Below, piece by piece: positions 30,017 through 50,056 of a DNA stretch of 50,056 nucleotides. The notes below the pieces were generated by a model, which was not told the origin of the DNA, made no database searches, and worked only from the letters and a program-made list of their open reading frames with translations. The position numbers and the translations under genes are program-made. Location: the IMG/VR virus record IMGVR_UViG_3300024518_004078, positions 1 to 50,056 of that record. One strand, 5' to 3'. How positions within the stretch are numbered: position 1 is the stretch's first letter; each line of letters begins with the position of its first letter. The stretch is from a virus. Lineage: Duplodnaviria > Caudoviricetes.

Positions 30017-30282
30017 CACCGGGATCGATTTTGCCAGGGGCCTAAACTCTTTTTGTTTTTTCGAGGATCCGGATCCTCGACTTCATAAGTCTCAACGATC
30101 GCAACGTCCGTAAATTCCTCACCCGTAAAATCGAAAAACTCTCTTTTGACTTCCTCTCTTTTCAATAGCTTTTTGCCGTGAATAAAGACCGCAACATCCC
30201 CGGCGTCTACTGGCGTGAAGATATTTCCCATTTGTACCATGTCCGGCCCGCATCCTTTGTTTTTGTATACTGTTAGGGTCAT
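30013..30282 (-). CDS. Hypothetical protein
   Basis: AGGA RBS; ATGA overlap; stop overlaps the convergent VRR-NUC stop. Confidence 0.6.
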   Translation of the reverse strand: MTLTVYKNKGCGPDMVQMGNIFTPVDAGDVAVFIHGKKLLKREEVKREFFDFTGEEFTDVAIVETYEVEDPDPRKNKKSLGPWQNRSRC

Positions 30283-33919: not shown

Positions 33920-34846
33920 TTATTCCACGGACGCCAGAAATTGACGACAGAATGCGGCAACCTTCCCGTTGAATATTTTGGTTACTTGTTTCCGTTCGTC
34001 TTTCAGGAGACAGTCGAAAATATCGGGTTCATCTTCTCGCGCGTCCGTAAAAATATCTTGATTGTAGGCACCTAGGAATTTACCGAAATCTTTCAATTCC
34101 CAAGGTTGTTTCCCAAATAAATTATCATATCGGGTTTGCGTTATATATTCTTCCAGCCGTGTCAGGATCTCCCCCTGTTCCCCGGAGAGTTCAACCGTTT
34201 TTTTCGGTTTCTTCACCCGTTCGGAGAAGCTGGCATTTTTGTTTTTGATAATCAAACGCTTCCCGCCGTTGTTAAACCGCGTGATATTGGGTTTTAAAAC
34301 TACGCCTTCCATTTGGTTGGGGCCGGAGGCATCTAGAAAAACACACGATTTATGATCGTTGGGGTGTTTCATGCCTTCCTCCAATGTTGCGCCGCCAAAA
34401 CCGGGCGGTGTTGCAAATCCTGGAATTTGGGACAGGAATTCTTGTGGCAAATATCTTTCACTATCGTCCCATATCAATACTACATCAAAGAGGGCAAAGT
34501 TTTTATCTGGGCCATAATCTACCCGCTTCTGAATTCCGGGGCCGTACAATTCCCCGTAAAAAATAACATAGTCACAATCAGAATCGGCGATCAGTTGGGC
34601 AGATTCGGCGATCGCGGGCTCACTATACCTATCAATTACCTCTTGACAATTGTAAAAAGTTCCATCCACAAACTGATTTCGAGACGCTACTTTGACCTCT
34701 TTCCCATCGCTGTAAAACGCGAAGTTTGCACCATCGATCTTTTCGGTGATAAACCATCTTTCGTTTTCTGGAACCGAGTTTTTGATTTGCGTTATGAATT
34801 TGCTATTATAGGCGTTTGTGATGCTGTTATATTTTTTAAACTTCAT
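33920..34846 (-). CDS. rnl2: RNA ligase 2, T4 Rnl2-like
   Basis: FKKYNSITNAYNSKFI N-terminus, motif I EKIDGANF, YGELYGPGIQK, FALFDV, EGVVLKP, IIKNKN and a helical C-terminal domain. Confidence 0.88.
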   Translation of the reverse strand: MKFKKYNSITNAYNSKFITQIKNSVPENERWFITEKIDGANFAFYSDGKEVKVASRNQFVDGTFYNCQEVIDRYSEPAIAESAQLIADSDCDYVIFYGELYGPGIQKRVDYGPDKNFALFDVVLIWDDSERYLPQEFLSQIPGFATPPGFGGATLEEGMKHPNDHKSCVFLDASGPNQMEGVVLKPNITRFNNGGKRLIIKNKNASFSERVKKPKKTVELSGEQGEILTRLEEYITQTRYDNLFGKQPWELKDFGKFLGAYNQDIFTDAREDEPDIFDCLLKDERKQVTKIFNGKVAAFCRQFLASVE

Positions 34847-35072
34847 TCTCCCCCTCTTTCTGATCCGTTTCGTCCGACTCCACATAGCCAATTTTAACCA
34901 TCAAGATAGTTAGGATTGTTTTGATGGCTATCAGGTTGGCAGAAAGAACCACCCCATCATCCACCTCTCGCCCTGGGCGTGAATCCTGGATCATGGCTAC
35001 TGCCTCGTTCACTAAGTCAACAATTTTTTTCGCGGCAATTTTCTCCAAATCAAAATTCTCGTGTTCATTCAT
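34836..35072 (-). CDS. Hypothetical protein
   Basis: AAAGGG RBS; overlaps neighbours. Confidence 0.6.
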   Translation of the reverse strand: MNEHENFDLEKIAAKKIVDLVNEAVAMIQDSRPGREVDDGVVLSANLIAIKTILTILMVKIGYVESDETDQKEGENEV

Positions 35073-45715: not shown

Positions 45716-46041
45716 TTTAACATCTCCTTTAGCATTTCGAGGGCGTCGGGTGCGATGCCGGTCGTATCTCCTGATTTGTTCCGGCAAGCGACAACACCGT
45801 TAAATGCATCCGTTATGTTGGCGCCCACGTTTTGGCAGATATGCAAACCGGCGGCAAAAACAGCCGCAAAAATCATCTTTTCCCCGTCGGTTAGTCGCTG
45901 GCGATCCGGGGTAATCGGCGGTGACAGTCCGGCGTCATCGGGGCAATCGGAAAGTCTACACCGACTATCGCGCGAATCCGGGTGGGTACAGCTAAAAATT
46001 CCACTATTGGTATATTTACAATCTTTTTTTTCGTTTTTCAT
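45712..46041 (-). CDS. Hypothetical protein
   Basis: GAGGGG RBS; Cys-rich N-terminus. Confidence 0.6.
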   Translation of the reverse strand: MKNEKKDCKYTNSGIFSCTHPDSRDSRCRLSDCPDDAGLSPPITPDRQRLTDGEKMIFAAVFAAGLHICQNVGANITDAFNGVVACRNKSGDTTGIAPDALEMLKEMLK

Positions 46042-46226
46042 TCCGTCCCCTCTTTCTCCTCAACAACCGCGTCCGCTTTGACTACCAGCCCGGTGTCTTC
46101 GCTGTATTCTATTGAGTCGGCCCAGACCTCGATCGACCATAGAAGGCAGCTGATATCCTTGAATCCATCCTTATTTTTCGCGGTCTTCCCGCACGCATTA
46201 CAAACCCATATTTTTTTTCGTTTCAT
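46038..46226 (-). CDS. Hypothetical protein
   Basis: GAGGT RBS; WVCNACGK. Confidence 0.6.
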   Translation of the reverse strand: MKRKKIWVCNACGKTAKNKDGFKDISCLLWSIEVWADSIEYSEDTGLVVKADAVVEEKEGTE

Positions 46227-46417
46227 TTTACCTCGCTTTCCAAACATTCCTTACAGCGCTTGAGTGTGTCCATGATTTTCTCAGTAGTATTCGCCTTTTT
46301 ATCGGATATTAAAGGTCGGCGAAAGATTCTACAAAAATAGTTCTCATCAAAATGTCGACAGTCCGAGCAAGACACACCATCGGCCCAGATCGTTAATTCG
46401 CCTATTTTTATTTGCAT
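46223..46417 (-). CDS. Cys-rich hypothetical protein
   Basis: AAGGAG RBS; CSDC..C..RCKECL. Confidence 0.6.
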   Translation of the reverse strand: MQIKIGELTIWADGVSCSDCRHFDENYFCRIFRRPLISDKKANTTEKIMDTLKRCKECLESEVK

Positions 46418-46490
46418 TTTTCCTCTCCTTTAACCTTTGTCACCTGCTCGTCAAATATTTCGAATCTGCGGCCATCTTGTTCATGTTTCA

Positions 46491-46679
46491 TTATTTCGCC
46501 GCCTTCCAATATTCGCAACCGGCGCAAATTTCGCCGATTGGCGACCGGCGAGCCCGCTTTAATCCATCGGTATACGTTGCCCAAGTCCAGCAATAACCGA
46601 AAATATCCGGCTCAAACGGATATTGACACCGGGGATCCGGGTTGCGGTATTTTTCGTATTTTTCGGCTTTTTCACTCAT
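46491..46679 (-). CDS. Cys-rich hypothetical protein
   Basis: GGAGGA RBS. Confidence 0.6.
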   Translation of the reverse strand: MSEKAEKYEKYRNPDPRCQYPFEPDIFGYCWTWATYTDGLKRARRSPIGEICAGCEYWKAAK

Positions 46680-46852
46680 TTCGAGTCCTCCCCTTCCAGT
46701 TTTTCTCCTTTTTCTACTCGCTCCAATTCATTACAAATCAGAATTCCGAGAGCTTTGGCCATCGAAATTTCGTAATCGGTACACAGTTTTTTATACTTTT
46801 TGAATGTTTCATTGTCTACATCAACTCTCATTGTCTTCCCGTAATTCTTCAC
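46676..46852 (-). CDS. Putative ribbon-helix-helix DNA-binding protein, 58 aa (absent from the ORF track)
   Basis: GGAAGG RBS and GTG; MKNYGKTMRVDVDNETFKKYKKLCTDYEISMAKALGILICNEL; first gene of the leftward arm. Confidence 0.6.
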   Translation of the reverse strand: MKNYGKTMRVDVDNETFKKYKKLCTDYEISMAKALGILICNELERVEKGEKLEGEDSK

Positions 46853-46882
46853 TTTTTAGCCTTCCGTTGTGGGTACAAGGGG

Positions 46883-46910
46883 ACTATAACACATATTTCC
46901 AAGTTGCAAA
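46883..46910 (-). promoter_or_regulatory. Leftward promoter with extended -10
   Basis: TGn-TATAGT with TTGCAA 15 nt upstream. Confidence 0.5.
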
Positions 46911-47020
46911 GTTTTTTTGTAACTTTTCCAAGCCCCTGTAATCATTCAGTTGACACATTTGCCGCAATCGAACAATTAGACACGTAAAATGCGCGTACTT
47001 TTTCGGCCATAATCTCCGAA

Positions 47021-47313
47021 ATTACAGAATATTACCCCAAAAAGGTAATATTCCCCCGGTCCGTAATTGCCAAAACGCCAATAATAACGGGCACATTACC
47101 AATATTCCGGAAATTATCGCTAGGACAGGCACTATGTGTGTGTGTGCGGGCGTGTGTGTGCGTACGCCTATATATATAATTTTTCTTTTTTAAGTAATAA
47201 TATAATAAAGAGAAAGAGAACATTAAAAAGGCGAGCAGCTACGCGGGGTTCAAAATATCGAGACACGATATATTTTTTGTAATAACCCGTAATATGGGGT
47301 AATATGGGGTAAT
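47021..47313. other. Putative replication origin / control region
   Basis: Ten GTAAT/ATTAC copies, four at 10-bp phase; (GT)n tract; AT-rich block; lies at the strand divergence point. Confidence 0.5.
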
Positions 47314-47346
47314 AAGGGGGTTTTCCCCCAAGATCGTGATTTTAGC

Positions 47347-47375
47347 GTGACAACAGGCGCGCCCGGCATTATACT
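47347..47375 (+). promoter_or_regulatory. Rightward promoter, probably giving a leaderless mRNA
   Basis: GTGACA-17-TATACT; ATG 47382 lies 7 nt after the -10, with no RBS. Confidence 0.55.
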
Positions 47376-47381
47376 TTTCAA

Positions 47382-47567
47382 ATGCCACCAAATATAGAGA
47401 AATACCGCCCCACCAATCGAGAGAAATCCAAAGCAGACAACCGGCGGTGTTTGCATTGGTGTTATAGTTGCGACATGGAGAGAGTAGGGGCCGTGGGCAA
47501 GTGTCCGTTCTGCGGAAACAGAAATAACAGGAAAAAGAGAATCGATCCCCACCTAGAGGCCCATTAA
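47382..47567 (+). CDS. Zinc-ribbon protein
   Basis: WCYSCD..KCPFCG. Confidence 0.65.
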   Translation: MPPNIEKYRPTNREKSKADNRRCLHWCYSCDMERVGAVGKCPFCGNRNNRKKRIDPHLEAH

Positions 47568-47568
47568 C

Positions 47569-48285
47569 ATGCCACCAATGTTCCAGCTAAAACAGCAAGA
47601 CCTCAAGCAGCTTGAGGAAGCGTTCCGTAAGAGCCCCAAGCGGTTTCGCAGTGTAACCGGTCGGGTGCTCAATACCTTCGCGTTCGAGTCCAGGCTCCGA
47701 GCTATCAAAATAGTCGAGTCTGAGATGATGTCTCGCCGTAAGGGCTTCGCCAACAAGGTGCTCAAGGTTGAGCGCGCAAACTTCTTTAGACCGATAGACG
47801 CTCAGAGGTCCCAGGTGGGGTCCATAAGACTCCCGCGCTTCTCCGGGTGGGTAGCGCAGCAGAATGGGAGAAAGACGAACAGGACACGTGTAGCGACATC
47901 CCTGGGGCGTGGTGGCAAGGATTCGAGGCAGATCGCTCCGTCTAACAGGCTCAGAAAGGGAAAAGACTTCAAATCACCCGACGAATACAAGGGTCGTTCC
48001 CAGACTCACAGGGCCGTCGTAATGCTCCAGCACCTCAACTCCATAGGCTACAAAAAGCCGTTCATAATTACCGGTCACAAACGCATGGCGCCGGGTCTCT
48101 ATAAATTTCGCGGCCGTGGCAAAAAACGCGGCCCTCAAATGCTCCAATCGTTTAATCCGATCCAGGTGCAGCCGAAAGTTAATCGGTGGCTTACGAAATC
48201 TGTTGACAGAATGTTCAAAATGGTAAATATTCGTTCGGTGTACTCAAGTGCGTTGAAAAAGGCGTTTAAGGTTGGGCTGAAATGA
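47569..48285 (+). CDS. Basic protein, possibly gpZ/HK97 gp10-like neck or tail completion protein
   Basis: LKQLEEAF..P..VLNTFAF amphipathic N-terminus; very Arg/Lys-rich; family call tentative. Confidence 0.45.
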   Translation: MPPMFQLKQQDLKQLEEAFRKSPKRFRSVTGRVLNTFAFESRLRAIKIVESEMMSRRKGFANKVLKVERANFFRPIDAQRSQVGSIRLPRFSGWVAQQNGRKTNRTRVATSLGRGGKDSRQIAPSNRLRKGKDFKSPDEYKGRSQTHRAVVMLQHLNSIGYKKPFIITGHKRMAPGLYKFRGRGKKRGPQMLQSFNPIQVQPKVNRWLTKSVDRMFKMVNIRSVYSSALKKAFKVGLK

Positions 48286-48325
48286 AAATGACGGGATCCG
48301 GTGTGGGCCGTCACCCGTGCCGGTG

Positions 48326-48406
48326 GGAATTGTAGTTTAATAGGCAAAACACGTTCAGTTATCCGGATTAATTGAGCAGATTCCGGTTCGACTCCGGGCG
48401 ATTCGC
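48326..48406 (+). ncRNA. tRNA-like RNA with an elongated anticodon arm
   Basis: Acceptor GGAATTG/CGATTCG (6 of 7 pairs); T8A9; D arm GTTT-AATAGGCA-AAAC; T arm TCCGG-TTCGACT-CCGGG; 9-bp anticodon stem; no CCA; intergenic. Confidence 0.72.
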
Positions 48407-48436
48407 TATTTTTTTGAGCAATGAAAAGGGGAAATT

Positions 48437-48637
48437 ATGGAAACCGAACACGCGAGTTATCTCGTTTCAACAATCGAAATTTCTAAATGTGGGGAGTGTC
48501 TGGCGTCGAAGCCCTCCTCGCGCGGTTATTGCCGGTGCGTCCTTCTCAGCCAAATAACAGACGTAAATTATCCACCTACGGACGATTGCCCGCTCCGAGA
48601 AAAGCCGATCTTGCTTCGGTTGGGCGAGGGGGTTTAG
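48437..48637 (+). CDS. Cys-rich hypothetical protein
   Basis: AAGGGG RBS; CGEC..C..DDCPL. Confidence 0.6.
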   Translation: METEHASYLVSTIEISKCGECLASKPSSRGYCRCVLLSQITDVNYPPTDDCPLREKPILLRLGEGV

Positions 48638-48638
48638 G

Positions 48639-49034
48639 ATGGGGGATCTGGAAATGGGGGATCCTGATACTTGCGGATATTCATTTTGGTATGCCCAGGG
48701 CAGATTTACGTGTCAATTCGATCCAGCTATCGCGCTCCACAGTAGAGAGTGCGATAGCTTCGATTGCCCGGCCAAGAAAGCCGCGCTTTTGCCAGCGGTC
48801 AAACCGCCCAAAAAGGAGAAAAGGGAAATGTCAACCAGAAAAGAGATCAGACAGAAAAGGTTTACTATTGAATTTATTGCAAAGGTGGGACCGTCCTCGA
48901 CAAACACGGAAGTAGCGCGCGAGCTACTAGATAGTTTCGGCGACGATTGTGCATATGAGATCGTAGAAGCACAGATTTCCTTCGAGGAAACTTCCGTCCT
49001 TCTCCTTACACCGGGGGAGCTCAATGGAAATTAA
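48639..49034 (+). CDS. Hypothetical protein, possible internal start at 48828
   Basis: GAGGGG RBS; second RBS-like AAGGAGAAAAGGG before an in-frame ATG. Confidence 0.55.
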   Translation: MGDLEMGDPDTCGYSFWYAQGRFTCQFDPAIALHSRECDSFDCPAKKAALLPAVKPPKKEKREMSTRKEIRQKRFTIEFIAKVGPSSTNTEVARELLDSFGDDCAYEIVEAQISFEETSVLLLTPGELNGN

Positions 49035-49180
49035 CCGAGACGAAAAAACATGTAATTCTTGTTGCAAAGGGATAAAAGGTGAATACTACTCTTTTTGGAC
49101 GGCATTTGGAGATGAAGAGGACATATGCCCCGATTGTCTCCAGGAGTGGTTAGACGCGAGCAAAGAGGGAGCGCCTTCAG

Positions 49181-49420
49181 ATGGATAGTTTCAGAAAAAC
49201 GAAGCCGATTTCTTGGCCGGATAAGGCGGGTTATTGGTGGTTTTGGGGAAAGAAATATGAAAATTCCGAATCAGAACTCCTTGCTGTGAGCGTTATCGAT
49301 CGAGGAGACGGGAAGGGCGTGATGATGGTGTTGTTGCTCGGTTACCGCCTATGTGGGGGCTATTTCGATTCTGCCCAATTCATCCCGGCCACGTTGCCGG
49401 AGTTGCCGGAGGGTGAGTGA
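49181..49420 (+). CDS. Hypothetical protein
   Basis: GAGGGAG RBS; PDKAGYWW motif. Confidence 0.6.
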   Translation: MDSFRKTKPISWPDKAGYWWFWGKKYENSESELLAVSVIDRGDGKGVMMVLLLGYRLCGGYFDSAQFIPATLPELPEGE

Positions 49421-49692
49421 TGGAGTATCAGGTTAAGATAGATTTGATAATAGACGATGATAAAGAGTTGTATTTCTTCGCTTATTTGCCCCAATTTGGA
49501 AGGAGTGCATGCAGCGCGACAGGGGAAACCGCAATAGGGGCGTTGACAAACCTTGGATATGTGTTTGGGGATATCAAGCAGCTATATGCGGATAAGGGCG
49601 CACCAATGCCTCCCATACTGGCGCACGAAGATGAACTTTATCACTCATCACCGGAAGGCTCCTGCGTGCCAACCCACGTTATCACGCACTAG
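49420..49692 (+). CDS. HicB-like protein with no DNA-binding domain
   Basis: YQVKI..DDD..FFAYLPQFG..CSATGET..AL.NL..Y.DKG.PMP fits the HicB N-terminal pattern. Confidence 0.72.
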   Translation: MEYQVKIDLIIDDDKELYFFAYLPQFGRSACSATGETAIGALTNLGYVFGDIKQLYADKGAPMPPILAHEDELYHSSPEGSCVPTHVITH

Positions 49693-49693
49693 C

Positions 49694-49795
49694 CCACAAT
49701 CCCCTACATATACCGAAACCACACGCATACACACACATTGCCCTACACATCCCACCACAACCTACACACACCCACATACACGCACCCCCCAACAC
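49694..49795 (+). repeat. C/A-rich, G-poor low-complexity tract
   Basis: CACA/CCC-rich with only four G in about 100 nt. Confidence 0.75.
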
Positions 49796-49832
49796 TGAAT
49801 AAATATTCACTAATCGCTGTATAAATATACAG
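49796..49832. promoter_or_regulatory. Two palindromic boxes, TGAATAAATATTCA and CTGTATAAATATACAG
   Basis: Shared TG-H-ATA-WW-TAT-W-CA layout; the second also fits CTGT-N8-ACAG. Confidence 0.6.
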
Positions 49833-50041
49833 TCGCAACACGATACAATGTGTGCCAATGTTGTGCCACATTAGCGTGTTCTCCCTAAATAGTGGCACAA
49901 CTATTCTCAAAAGTGGGACAGTGGGTCACGAATGACCCATATTGCTACAGCCCAGCAAATGCGCGGGTCGTAGCTTGTCTGCACGTAGGTGGGGGTGGGG
50001 GCATGTAAGGTACTCTCGCACCCCCTCCCACTGTGTGCGCC

Positions 50042-50056
50042 CTATATGTCGCAGCA
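50042..50056. repeat. Right copy of the 15-bp terminal direct repeat
   Basis: Identical to 1-15. Confidence 0.95.

What the first reader, a model, noticed from the sequence alone, without database searches (positions are those of the whole stretch)
48326..48406. tRNA-like RNA with a 9-bp anticodon stem
Seen: an intergenic 81-nt element with canonical D arm, T8A9, T arm (TTCGACT loop) and a 6/7 acceptor stem. Its anticodon stem, however, is 9 bp (GTTCAGTTA 48353-48361 with TAATTGAGC 48369-48377, two G-U pairs) around a 7-nt loop TCCGGAT. It lacks U33, has a G1/G72 mismatch and encodes no CCA. Known: canonical anticodon stems are 5 bp. Inference: the extra bases pair on both sides, which argues for selection rather than decay. 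It could be a tRNA mimic (decoy for anticodon nucleases or tRNA-modifying toxins, or a Y-RNA-like adaptor), a processing signal, or a precursor that is cut and religated.
Basis: partly seen in the sequence, partly recalled or inferred. Interest (0 to 1): 0.75.

Follow-up and report, generated by a model that had tools for sequence, protein, structure and literature searches.

The report
Orphan phage tRNA look-alike, over-long anticodon stem
A marine phage carries one tRNA-shaped gene whose codon-reading arm is four base pairs too long to work on a ribosome, so it is either a non-decoding tRNA look-alike or a tRNA gene disabled by a small palindromic insert, and no relative exists to tell which.

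Summary
Window 48325-48407 (+) is a real tRNA-derived gene and the only one in this 50-kb marine cos-phage. It has normal acceptor, D and T arms, and an anticodon arm that folds as 9 bp plus the loop UCCGGAU.

New points:
- The extra length is a perfect 8-nt palindrome, ATCCGGAT (48361-48368), in the middle of the loop, plus one extra hinge base, C48352.
- Without the palindrome the arm would be a normal 5 bp plus the loop GUUUAAU (U33, anticodon UUA, A37).
- G48325:C48406 makes the acceptor helix 8 bp.
- The arm folds only on the + strand.

Context:
- The gene lies in a variable cargo slot between the last conserved gene and the conserved genome end.
- None of 21 related loci or 20 related whole records has a tRNA there.
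- No homologue turned up in the viral, metagenome or genome collections, so covariation cannot be tested. No RNA data exist.
- Unlike all 20 relatives searched, this phage also has a T4 Rnl2-type RNA ligase.

Best reading (0.36): a processed, non-decoding tRNA look-alike used in RNA-level conflict. Close rival (0.30): a tRNA gene killed by one palindromic insertion.

The scan has noted other phage tRNA look-alikes with rebuilt anticodon arms on other DNA, and I met four more here. This is a new variant of a poorly understood known kind. Interest is moderate.

The parts
48203..48231 (+). Promoter-like site TTGACA-17-AATATT inside the 3' end of the upstream gene
   Evidence: 10 of 12 matches. 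One site was found in 1.8 kb where shuffles give 1.2, so it is not significant on its own.
48325..48407 (+). tRNA-derived gene (whole element, ARAGORN limits; Rfam limits 48326-48406)
48326..48332 (+). Acceptor stem 5' strand. It pairs with 48399-48405 in 6 of 7 positions (G48326/G48405 mismatch). G48325:C48406 adds an eighth pair.
48335..48350 (+). D arm: 4-bp stem and 8-nt loop with G18 G19
48351..48352 (+). Hinge: A at position 26 plus one extra base, C48352
   Evidence: 26 nt against 17 model positions = 8 + 1 extra.
48353..48377 (+). Anticodon arm: 9-bp stem (48353-48361 / 48369-48377) and 7-nt loop TCCGGAT (48362-48368)
48361..48368 (+). Perfect 8-nt palindrome ATCCGGAT. This is the stretch that ARAGORN treats as an 'intron' when introns are allowed.
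48378..48398 (+). 4-nt variable loop and T arm (5 bp, loop TTCGACT)
48409..48415 (+). Run of seven T two bases after the element: a possible transcript end or 3' trimming site
   Evidence: Not called as a terminator.
48437..49692 (+). Five small overlapping ORFs (66, 131, 54, 79 and 91 aa) that share the cargo slot with the element. None matches a family.
33920..34888 (-). T4 Rnl2-type RNA ligase. A possible partner, linkage not shown.
   Evidence: PF09414 1.9e-20, PF18043 1.5e-7; T4 Rnl2 2hvq, 1.2e-29; 0 of 20 relatives.
50007..50056 (+). Conserved genome-end motif (AAGGTACTC, then 41 further bases to the record's end) that bounds the cargo slot

Best explanation
The element is a phage-borne gene derived from a class-I tRNA that makes a tRNA-shaped RNA unable to read codons.

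Why it should be processed: its upper half (acceptor helix, T arm, D/T-loop contacts) is intact. I therefore expect the transcript to be cut out by RNase P and the 3' trimming enzymes and to receive CCA (inferred).

Why it cannot decode:
- The lower half is a 25-nt near-palindrome that folds as 9 bp plus a 7-nt loop. This is shown by sequence and by predicted folding.
- Four extra pairs lengthen the anticodon arm by about 11 A. That follows from the A-form helix rise, which is established knowledge.
- The loop also lacks U33.
- So it cannot span the decoding centre and the peptidyl-transferase centre at once (inferred).

Favoured role: a stable small RNA that occupies tRNA-binding proteins, most plausibly a decoy or competitor for a host anticodon-loop nuclease or tRNA-modifying toxin. 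It lies in the accessory-gene slot at the right genome end. This phage, alone among the relatives searched, also acquired an Rnl2 RNA ligase, the kind of enzyme that a review takes to repair cleaved tRNAs in phages. Expression, processing and any target are not shown.
For: - tRNA ancestry.
- Intact body: all of U8, A14, G18 G19, A21, the T-loop TTCGA and 24 of 25 stem pairs.
- Stable arm on the + strand only, owing to two G-U pairs.
- Working tRNAs have at most 6-bp anticodon stems (passages of PMC7609411).
- Intergenic position, with a promoter-like site upstream and a T run downstream.
- Cargo-slot location.
- Rnl2 is present here and in 0 of 20 relatives' records. A review states that phage Rnl1, Rnl2 and RtcB ligate cleaved tRNAs (passages of PMC7824862).
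Against: - No homologue was found anywhere, so there is no conservation or covariation.
- No RNA run holds the sequence, so expression is untested.
- One 8-nt palindromic insertion into an ordinary tRNA explains the whole anatomy without any new function.
- The G1/G72 mismatch and the extra hinge base look like damage.
- The promoter-like site is no more than chance gives.
- The Rnl2 link rests on one genome. No end-healing kinase or phosphatase was recognised among 80 ORFs.
- No defence nuclease or target is known for the unknown host.
Confidence: 0.36

Rival explanations
1. A dead gene. An ordinary phage tRNA was knocked out by a single insertion of the 8-nt palindrome ATCCGGAT into its anticodon, and has not yet decayed or been deleted. 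The tRNA had a 5-bp stem and the loop GUUUAAU, that is anticodon UUA, an ochre-suppressor type, possibly of glutamine-tRNA stock.
For: - Removing 48361-48368 leaves a textbook arm with U33 and A37.
- When introns are allowed but not forced, ARAGORN prefers this model, tRNA-Stop(tta) of 75 nt plus an 8-nt insert, over the intron-less one.
- The flanks GUU/AAU are complementary by themselves, so the 9-bp stem follows automatically.
- The best other match of the element's own model is a phage tRNA-Gln(UUG), L066 13716-13790, at 46.9 bits. It has the loop GUUUGAU and the same variable loop and T arm.
- The gene is an orphan in a hypervariable slot.
- The G1/G72 mismatch fits a damaged gene.
Against: - Nothing else in the molecule has decayed: 24 of 25 pairs and all tertiary bases are intact.
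- No natural process known to me inserts a clean 8-nt palindrome.
- The extra base C48352 is not explained.
- ARAGORN's intron mode fits 'introns' to ordinary tRNAs too: all 46 calls had one when an intron was forced, so its model is a fit and not evidence.
- Comparing the body with about 170 phage tRNAs singles out no isotype.
- The phage uses the standard code, and 33 of its 84 ORFs end in TAA, so an ochre suppressor has no obvious use.
Confidence: 0.3
2. A cis-acting processing signal. The tRNA shape serves only as an RNase P / 3'-end cleavage site that separates the upstream gene's message from the five small downstream ORFs and sets their mRNA end. The excised RNA itself has no job.
For: - The element sits 40 nt after the stop codon of gene 47569-48285 and 30 nt before the start of ORF 48437 on the same strand, with a T run in between.
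- Only the upper half, which is what RNase P needs (established knowledge), is canonical.
Against: - A processing signal would not need a stable 9-bp lower arm or an intact D arm.
- Relatives manage without one: 0 of 21 loci.
- There are no RNA ends to look at.
Confidence: 0.1
3. A working decoder as it stands: tRNA-Pro(CGG) as ARAGORN calls it, or an Arg(CCG) reading with U48362 as U33 in a widened loop.
For: - ARAGORN's call.
- CCG is the phage's commonest proline codon, 20.9 per 1000; CGG is at 12.4 per 1000.
- The 7-nt loop is kept.
Against: - A 9-bp stem against at most 6 bp in any working tRNA.
- C at position 33.
- A at 37 and C at 73, where bacterial proline tRNAs carry G37 and A73 (recalled, not tested).
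- The four proline tRNAs in the comparison set are among the least like its body, with a best score of 5 against 19 for the top match.
Confidence: 0.05
4. A precursor that is cut and rejoined. The 8-nt palindrome is removed at the RNA level and the halves are joined by the phage's Rnl2 ligase, giving a 75-nt tRNA with anticodon UUA.
For: - The clean result of removing exactly the palindrome.
- An RNA ligase found in this phage and in 0 of 20 relatives.
- Unexplained inserts in phage tRNA genes are in print for Lak megaphages (passages of PMC6784885).
Against: - No bulge-helix-bulge motif, no room for a ribozyme, and no recognised endonuclease or end-healing enzyme.
- Rnl2 seals nicks in duplex RNA (abstract of PMC3884662). 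Here the ends would lie in a loop that must open, which is the task of Rnl1-type ligases (recalled).
- The Rnl2 gene lies 13.4 kb away on the other strand.
- The phage has no evident need for ochre suppression.
Confidence: 0.05
5. A chance resemblance or an assembly artefact.
For: None beyond the lack of relatives.
Against: - Two independent detectors call it.
- Contigs from two runs are identical across it.
- The arm's z-score is -3.66.
Confidence: 0.01

Closest known systems
Canonical bacterial/phage tRNA (Rfam RF00005)
   Same: Acceptor, D and T arms, conserved tertiary bases and a 7-nt loop. It scores 30.0 bits against a cut-off of 29.
   Different: The anticodon stem is 9 bp, not 5. There is C33, an extra hinge base, a G1/G72 mismatch and an optional eighth acceptor pair. 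The model reaches its cut-off only by skipping the arm.
tRNA genes with 'enigmatic introns' in Lak megaphages (Devoto et al. 2019, PMC6784885; abstract and passages seen)
   Same: A phage tRNA gene that is longer than expected because of an unexplained insert in the anticodon region. No splicing mechanism is known.
   Different: The Lak inserts recur identically across genomes, and one may itself encode a tRNA. Their sizes are in supplements I could not open. Here the insert is 8 nt, palindromic and found in a single phage.
SpF41 sRNA of Streptococcus prophages and satellites (Rfam RF02435)
   Same: A tRNA-shaped small RNA on a mobile element whose anticodon arm is a short closed hairpin. 33 of 36 bases are identical to element 48368-48403. 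The tRNA model scores 20.9 bits on the Javan731 copy.
   Different: The element scores only 20.3 bits against the family's cut-off of 52, and it lacks the terminator hairpin. The host group and habitat differ. The function of SpF41 is unknown too (passages of PMC6064168).
RNA species I and II of the phage T4 tRNA gene region
   Same: Phage-encoded small RNAs related to tRNAs that do not decode.
   Different: Those lie inside a tRNA gene cluster and are larger. This gene stands alone. No T4 sequence was compared here.
tRNA-Pyl, tRNA-Sec and mitochondrial tRNA-Ser(UCN), the working tRNAs with lengthened anticodon stems (PMC7609411)
   Same: An anticodon stem longer than 5 bp.
   Different: Theirs is 6 bp and is offset by a shortened variable loop, D loop or connector. 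Here it is 9 bp with a normal D arm.
Y RNA (YrlA) with Ro/TROVE protein and RtcB ligase (mentioned in PMC7824862)
   Same: A tRNA-like RNA in a genome that also has an RNA ligase.
   Different: No TROVE protein was found among 80 ORFs. In YrlA the RNA ends lie at the foot of the long stem (recalled), whereas here they lie at the acceptor as in a tRNA.

Membership tests
tRNA (RF00005) | Score at or above Rfam's gathering cut-off | tested here: met
   30.0 against 29 bits with relaxed filters on 351 nt. It was missed in the whole-window gathering run.
tRNA (RF00005) | 7-bp acceptor, D arm with G18 G19, T arm with the TTCRA loop | tested here: met
   The acceptor pairs in 6 of 7 positions.
tRNA (RF00005) | 5-bp (at most 6-bp) anticodon stem, 7-nt loop with U33 and a purine at 37 | tested here: not met
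   9 bp and C33. The upper limit of 6 bp comes from PMC7609411.
tRNA (RF00005) | Processed, given CCA, aminoacylated and used on the ribosome | not testable with these tools
   No RNA run is listed.
tRNA-Pro (ARAGORN's label) | G37 and the acceptor identity set of bacterial proline tRNAs (recalled); a body like other proline tRNAs | tested here: not met
   A at 37 and C at 73. The four proline tRNAs of the comparison set score at most 5, against 19 for the best match.
Suppressor tRNA(UUA) with an intron | A canonical tRNA once a defined insert is removed | tested here: inconclusive
   ARAGORN -i gives tRNA-Stop(tta), 75 nt plus 8 nt. The same mode, when forced, puts inserts into 46 of 46 calls.
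Suppressor tRNA(UUA) with an intron | A known splicing signal: a bulge-helix-bulge motif or a group I ribozyme | tested here: not met
   The stem is fully paired with no bulges, and the insert is 8 nt. There is no intron family hit in Rfam.
Suppressor tRNA(UUA) with an intron | The genome reads TAA as a sense codon | tested here: not met
   The standard code gives 92% cover by ORFs of at least 100 aa. TAA ends 33 of 84 ORFs. Reading through TAA gave nothing telling.
SpF41 sRNA (RF02435) | Score at or above the cut-off of 52 bits, including the 3' terminator hairpin | tested here: not met
   20.3 bits, with the hairpin absent.
tmRNA | A tRNA-like domain plus a tag reading frame | tested here: not met
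   ARAGORN reports no tmRNA, and Rfam gives no hit.
Y RNA / YrlA module | A Ro (TROVE) protein gene in the genome | tested here: not met
   No TROVE family appears among the 23 Pfam families found in 80 ORFs.
Phage tRNA-like stable RNAs (T4 species I/II type) | Placed inside a tRNA gene cluster and co-processed with tRNAs | tested here: not met
   It is the only tRNA-type gene in the genome.
Phage tRNA-like stable RNAs (T4 species I/II type) | Sequence or structure likeness to the T4/T5 RNAs | not tested
   No T4 or T5 sequence was fetched.

The most novel reading that the evidence does not exclude
The 8-nt palindrome is a true mini-intron of a bacteriophage tRNA. The primary transcript is locked as a non-decoding hairpin, alone or as a dimer through its self-complementary loop. 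A double-strand-specific cut removes the palindrome, the phage's own Rnl2 ligase rejoins the halves, and the result is an ochre-suppressor tRNA made only when the ligase is expressed. That would be protein-dependent tRNA splicing in a bacterial virus, and a first natural task for Rnl2.
Probability: 0.05. Interest if true: 0.85.

Novelty: new variant of a known kind. Interest (0 to 1): 0.42.

Why it matters
Phages keep turning up with tRNA-shaped genes whose decoding arm has been rebuilt, and nobody knows what they do. The oldest cases (the T4 RNA species) have, to my recollection, stayed unexplained for decades.

This one is the simplest so far: a perfect tRNA body, one 8-nt palindrome, one promoter-like site, in a 50-kb phage that also picked up an Rnl2 ligase whose natural substrate, to my knowledge, is likewise unknown. 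If it is alive, it is a compact test object for three ideas:
- tRNA decoys against anticodon nucleases;
- tRNA-shaped processing signals;
- ligase-dependent tRNA maturation.

If it is dead, it shows how a single small insertion can make a tRNA gene look designed. That is a caution for reading other such finds.

Tried and rejected
Homologue hunts that found nothing useful:
- The exact 25-nt arm in viral contigs: 0 hits.
- Loop plus T-arm pattern in viral contigs: 0 hits.
- D-arm plus T-arm pattern in viral contigs: 1 hit, an unrelated look-alike, L018.
- The same kind of pattern in metagenome contigs: 6 hits, all ordinary tRNA-Arg(GCG) genes in tRNA arrays.
- A 23-nt variable-loop/T-arm string in genome contigs: 1 hit, a Patescibacteria tRNA-Arg(CCU).
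- blastn of 46000-50056 against GenBank phages: no match.
- Model R1, built from the element alone, searched over 100 sources and 1.6 Mb: no second copy of the 9-bp design.
- Earlier-findings look-ups by sequence and by place: nothing.

Relatives by protein:
- The upstream gene as a single sequence gave nothing, and neither did Rnl2 as a single sequence.
- The terminase search gave only loci of 43% identity or less, with no tRNA in 16 of them.

RNA evidence: no RNA holder was listed for 47500-50056. The contigs that were laid show presence only.

Isotype: comparing the body with about 170 distinct phage tRNAs gave no clear isotype.

Palindrome as a genome-wide signal:
- TCCGGA occurs 29 times against 24 expected.
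- ATCCGGAT occurs 6 times against 1.8 expected, but it ranks only tenth of 256 8-mer palindromes. I dropped this line.

TAA read-through: two in-frame gene pairs, which is no more than chance. Dropped.

Rnl2 co-occurrence:
- Among 80 Rnl2 loci I saw one further look-alike family (L076/L078/L079) and several tRNAs with odd inserts.
- I had no matched control set, so I make no claim of enrichment.

Rejected readings: attP remnant (the whole cloverleaf is present, and no integrase appears among the Pfam hits); tmRNA; Y RNA; archaeal-type intron.

Papers: full-text searches for extended or long anticodon stems in phage tRNAs found no described case of a 9-bp stem. Searches on Rnl2 with tRNA and on tRNA-like decoys found no described link. 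Supplements of PMC6784885, which hold the intron sizes, could not be seen.

Full report
**What the window is.** The window is a whole viral record of 50,056 bases, judged 98% complete.
- Its head genes are lambda-like (gpA terminase, lambda-family portal, S49 protease, head decoration protein D, capsid protein E) and its baseplate is Mu/P2-like.
- It also has RecT/YqaJ recombination genes, a Dam methylase, a helicase and a primase.
- The standard genetic code covers 92% of it with ORFs of at least 100 aa.
- It occurs in seawater metagenome runs.
- No cultured phage is close: the best terminase match in GenBank phages is 33% identical.

- ARAGORN calls one tRNA gene in the genome, tRNA-Pro(cgg) at 48325-48407.
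- Rfam's tRNA model just passes its cut-off (30.0 against 29 bits), and only by treating the anticodon arm as a local break: 26 nt where the model has 17. The standard whole-window run misses it.
- The minimum-energy fold is the cloverleaf with a 9-bp stem and a 7-nt loop.
- The arm alone is far more stable than its shuffles (z -3.66). Its reverse complement does not fold, because two of the nine pairs are G-U.
- Contigs from two runs agree with the window base for base across the element.

- (a) The surplus is 9 nt, not 8. One is an extra hinge base, C48352. The other eight are the perfect palindrome ATCCGGAT at 48361-48368, in the middle of the arm.
- (b) Take the palindrome away and what remains is a textbook arm: stem GUUCA/UGAGC and loop GUUUAAU with U33, anticodon UUA and A37. 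When ARAGORN may choose between an intron and none, it prefers this model, 'tRNA-Stop(tta)' of 75 nt plus an 8-nt insert.
- I treat that only as a fit. When an intron is forced, the same program puts one into every one of 46 calls, most of them ordinary tRNAs. Ours is the only insert longer than 2 nt that is a palindrome.
- (c) The bases flanking the palindrome (GUU on one side, AAU on the other) are complementary by themselves. A single insertion would therefore create the 9-bp stem automatically. Pairing on both sides is no proof of selection.
- (d) G48325 pairs with C48406, so the acceptor helix can be 8 bp with one G/G mismatch. ARAGORN draws it that way. A G-1:C73 pair is the mark of bacterial histidine tRNAs (recalled, not tested).

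**Where it sits.**
- The upstream gene (47569-48285, 238 aa, a weak 'minor tail' PHROG) has relatives. An alignment of them fetched 21 related viral loci.
- In 13 of those 21 loci the contig stops 45-49 nt after the motif AGGTACT, which lies shortly after this gene. In the window the same motif stands 48 nt before the record's end. The window's first 15 bases repeat its last 15. This is the physical right end of a cos-type genome.
- The distance from the gene to the motif is 20-146 nt in most relatives. It is 652, 917, 1163 and 1709 nt in four relatives (the 917-nt tail stands in two loci, L026 and L036, that are identical there), and 1723 nt here.
- So the tRNA-like gene, five small unknown ORFs and a CA-rich spacer fill a variable cargo slot between the last conserved gene and the genome end.

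**Relatives.**
- None of the 21 loci has a tRNA in that slot. The one ARAGORN call, in L037, lies inside the protein gene.
- The Rfam tRNA model was searched in the whole records of 20 relatives (L029's record is not held). It finds nothing over the cut-off in 18. It finds hits elsewhere in the genome in two, G014 and G009.
- The closest collinear relative, G001, matches the window from 1326 to 48255 by tblastx. Its contig ends at the motif, 42 nt after the gene.
- A roughly 85%-identical variant seen in run X2 departs from the window after 48218.
- Pattern scans of the viral, metagenome and genome collections found no homologue.

**Which tRNA was it?** Unclear.
- The loop read as it stands gives CGG (Pro). 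But position 37 is A and position 73 is C, and the proline tRNAs in my comparison set are among the least similar.
- The element's own covariance model finds a phage tRNA-Gln(UUG) as its best other match. That tRNA has the same variable loop and T arm and the loop GUUUGAU, one base away from the 'spliced' loop.
- The only genome hit to the T-arm string is an arginine tRNA.
- I leave the isotype open.

**The ligase.**
- ORF 33920-34888 (minus strand) is a T4 Rnl2-type RNA ligase. It has both Pfam domains and matches T4 Rnl2 structures at 1.2e-29. The motif-I lysine region is invariant in an alignment of 24 homologues.
- It sits between the helicase and primase genes. In G001 those two genes are only about 470 nt apart.
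- None of 20 relatives' records has the ligase. The search does find it in the window itself.
- A review takes phage Rnl1, Rnl2 and RtcB to repair tRNAs cut by host nucleases.
- So this phage alone acquired both an RNA ligase and a tRNA-shaped gene. That is one genome and hence an anecdote.
- No end-healing enzyme was recognised among the 80 ORFs.

**Other look-alikes met on the way.**
- L018, from a 225-kb phage, has a tRNA body whose arm is a 6-bp stem capped by UUCG.
- Relative G014 has two adjacent paralogous look-alikes. One has an 8-bp bulged stem and a 4-nt loop. The other has 52 nt in place of the 17-nt arm.
- Three contigs with an Rnl2 gene (L076, L078, L079) share a 99-nt look-alike with a capped arm. 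It is the only tRNA hit in the two of their records that were searched, G021 and G022.
- Streptococcus SpF41 sRNA is a catalogued tRNA-shaped RNA on satellite prophages. It shares 33 of 36 bases with the 3' part of our element, but the element fails that family's cut-off.
- Earlier notes of this scan describe further such cases on other DNA, some with self-complementary loops. Those are unchecked leads.

**Weighing.**
- As it stands the RNA cannot decode. The longest anticodon stems in working tRNAs are 6 bp, and four more pairs add about 11 A.
- Everything RNase P, CCA-adding enzyme and other upper-half binders need is intact.
- Two readings are close.
- A maintained non-decoding look-alike (0.36) is favoured by the flawless rest of the molecule, the strand-specific stable arm, the recurrence of the design idea in other phages, and the ligase.
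- A freshly disabled tRNA gene (0.30) is favoured by the one-event explanation, the orphan status, the cargo-slot setting and the G1/G72 flaw.
- A pure cis processing signal (0.10), a decoder as it stands (0.05) and cut-and-rejoin maturation (0.05) trail behind.
- The last is the boldest. It is weakened because Rnl2 seals nicks in duplex RNA, whereas the ends here would lie in a loop that must open.

**Verdict.** This is a real, odd, single-copy tRNA-derived gene: a new variant within the poorly understood class of phage tRNA look-alikes. Its function is unproven. RNA-level data or a handful of relatives would settle it.

Noticed in passing
window 50007-50056 and 1-15; L025-L043 tails: This phage family has a conserved right genome end. 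The motif AGGTACT is followed 45-49 nt later by the contig end in 13 of 21 related loci and in the window. The window's first 15 bases repeat its last 15. Between the last conserved gene and this end lies a cargo slot of 20 to 1723 nt.
   Followed up: yes
window 33920-34888 (-): A T4 Rnl2-type RNA ligase is inserted between the helicase and primase genes. It is absent from all 20 relatives' records searched, including the collinear G001.
   Followed up: partly
L018 5666-5736: A 225-kb phage contig has a tRNA body with nearly the same D arm as ours, but its anticodon arm is a 6-bp stem capped by a UUCG tetraloop. ARAGORN labels it 'tRNA-???'.
   Followed up: partly
L051 1501-1573 (-) and 1293-1399 (-) (record G014): A phage of the same family carries two adjacent paralogous tRNA look-alikes. 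One is 73 nt with an 8-bp bulged stem and a 4-nt loop. The other is 107 nt with 52 nt in place of the anticodon arm. They score 40.3 and 37.8 bits with Rfam's tRNA model.
   Followed up: partly
L076 337-435 (also L078, L079): A 99-nt tRNA look-alike with a capped anticodon arm and a long variable arm, 9.6 kb from an Rnl2 gene. It is the only tRNA hit in the two searched records.
   Followed up: partly
L052 1501-1574 (record G009): A 74-nt element with only a tRNA acceptor stem and T arm (29.1 bits). It ends in CCA, and its middle part is unlike any tRNA.
   Followed up: no
L068/L069 15278-15364: An 87-nt phage tRNA-His(GUG) with C at position 33 and an extra hairpin in the variable region. Neighbouring tRNAs (Val, 89 nt) also carry inserts.
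   Followed up: no
window 30062-30079: An 18-nt perfect palindrome that contains ATCCGGAT, exactly at the switch from + strand to - strand genes. It is probably a two-way terminator.
   Followed up: no
window 49693-49800: A non-coding stretch rich in CA/CAC repeats between the last small ORF and the genome end.
   Followed up: no
L050 368-470 (GenBank satellite phage Javan731): SpF41 sRNA (108.9 bits) is itself tRNA-shaped: the tRNA model gives 20.9 bits. It lies about 70 nt from the end of the 12.5-kb satellite record, behind a TATAAT-like box.
   Followed up: partly
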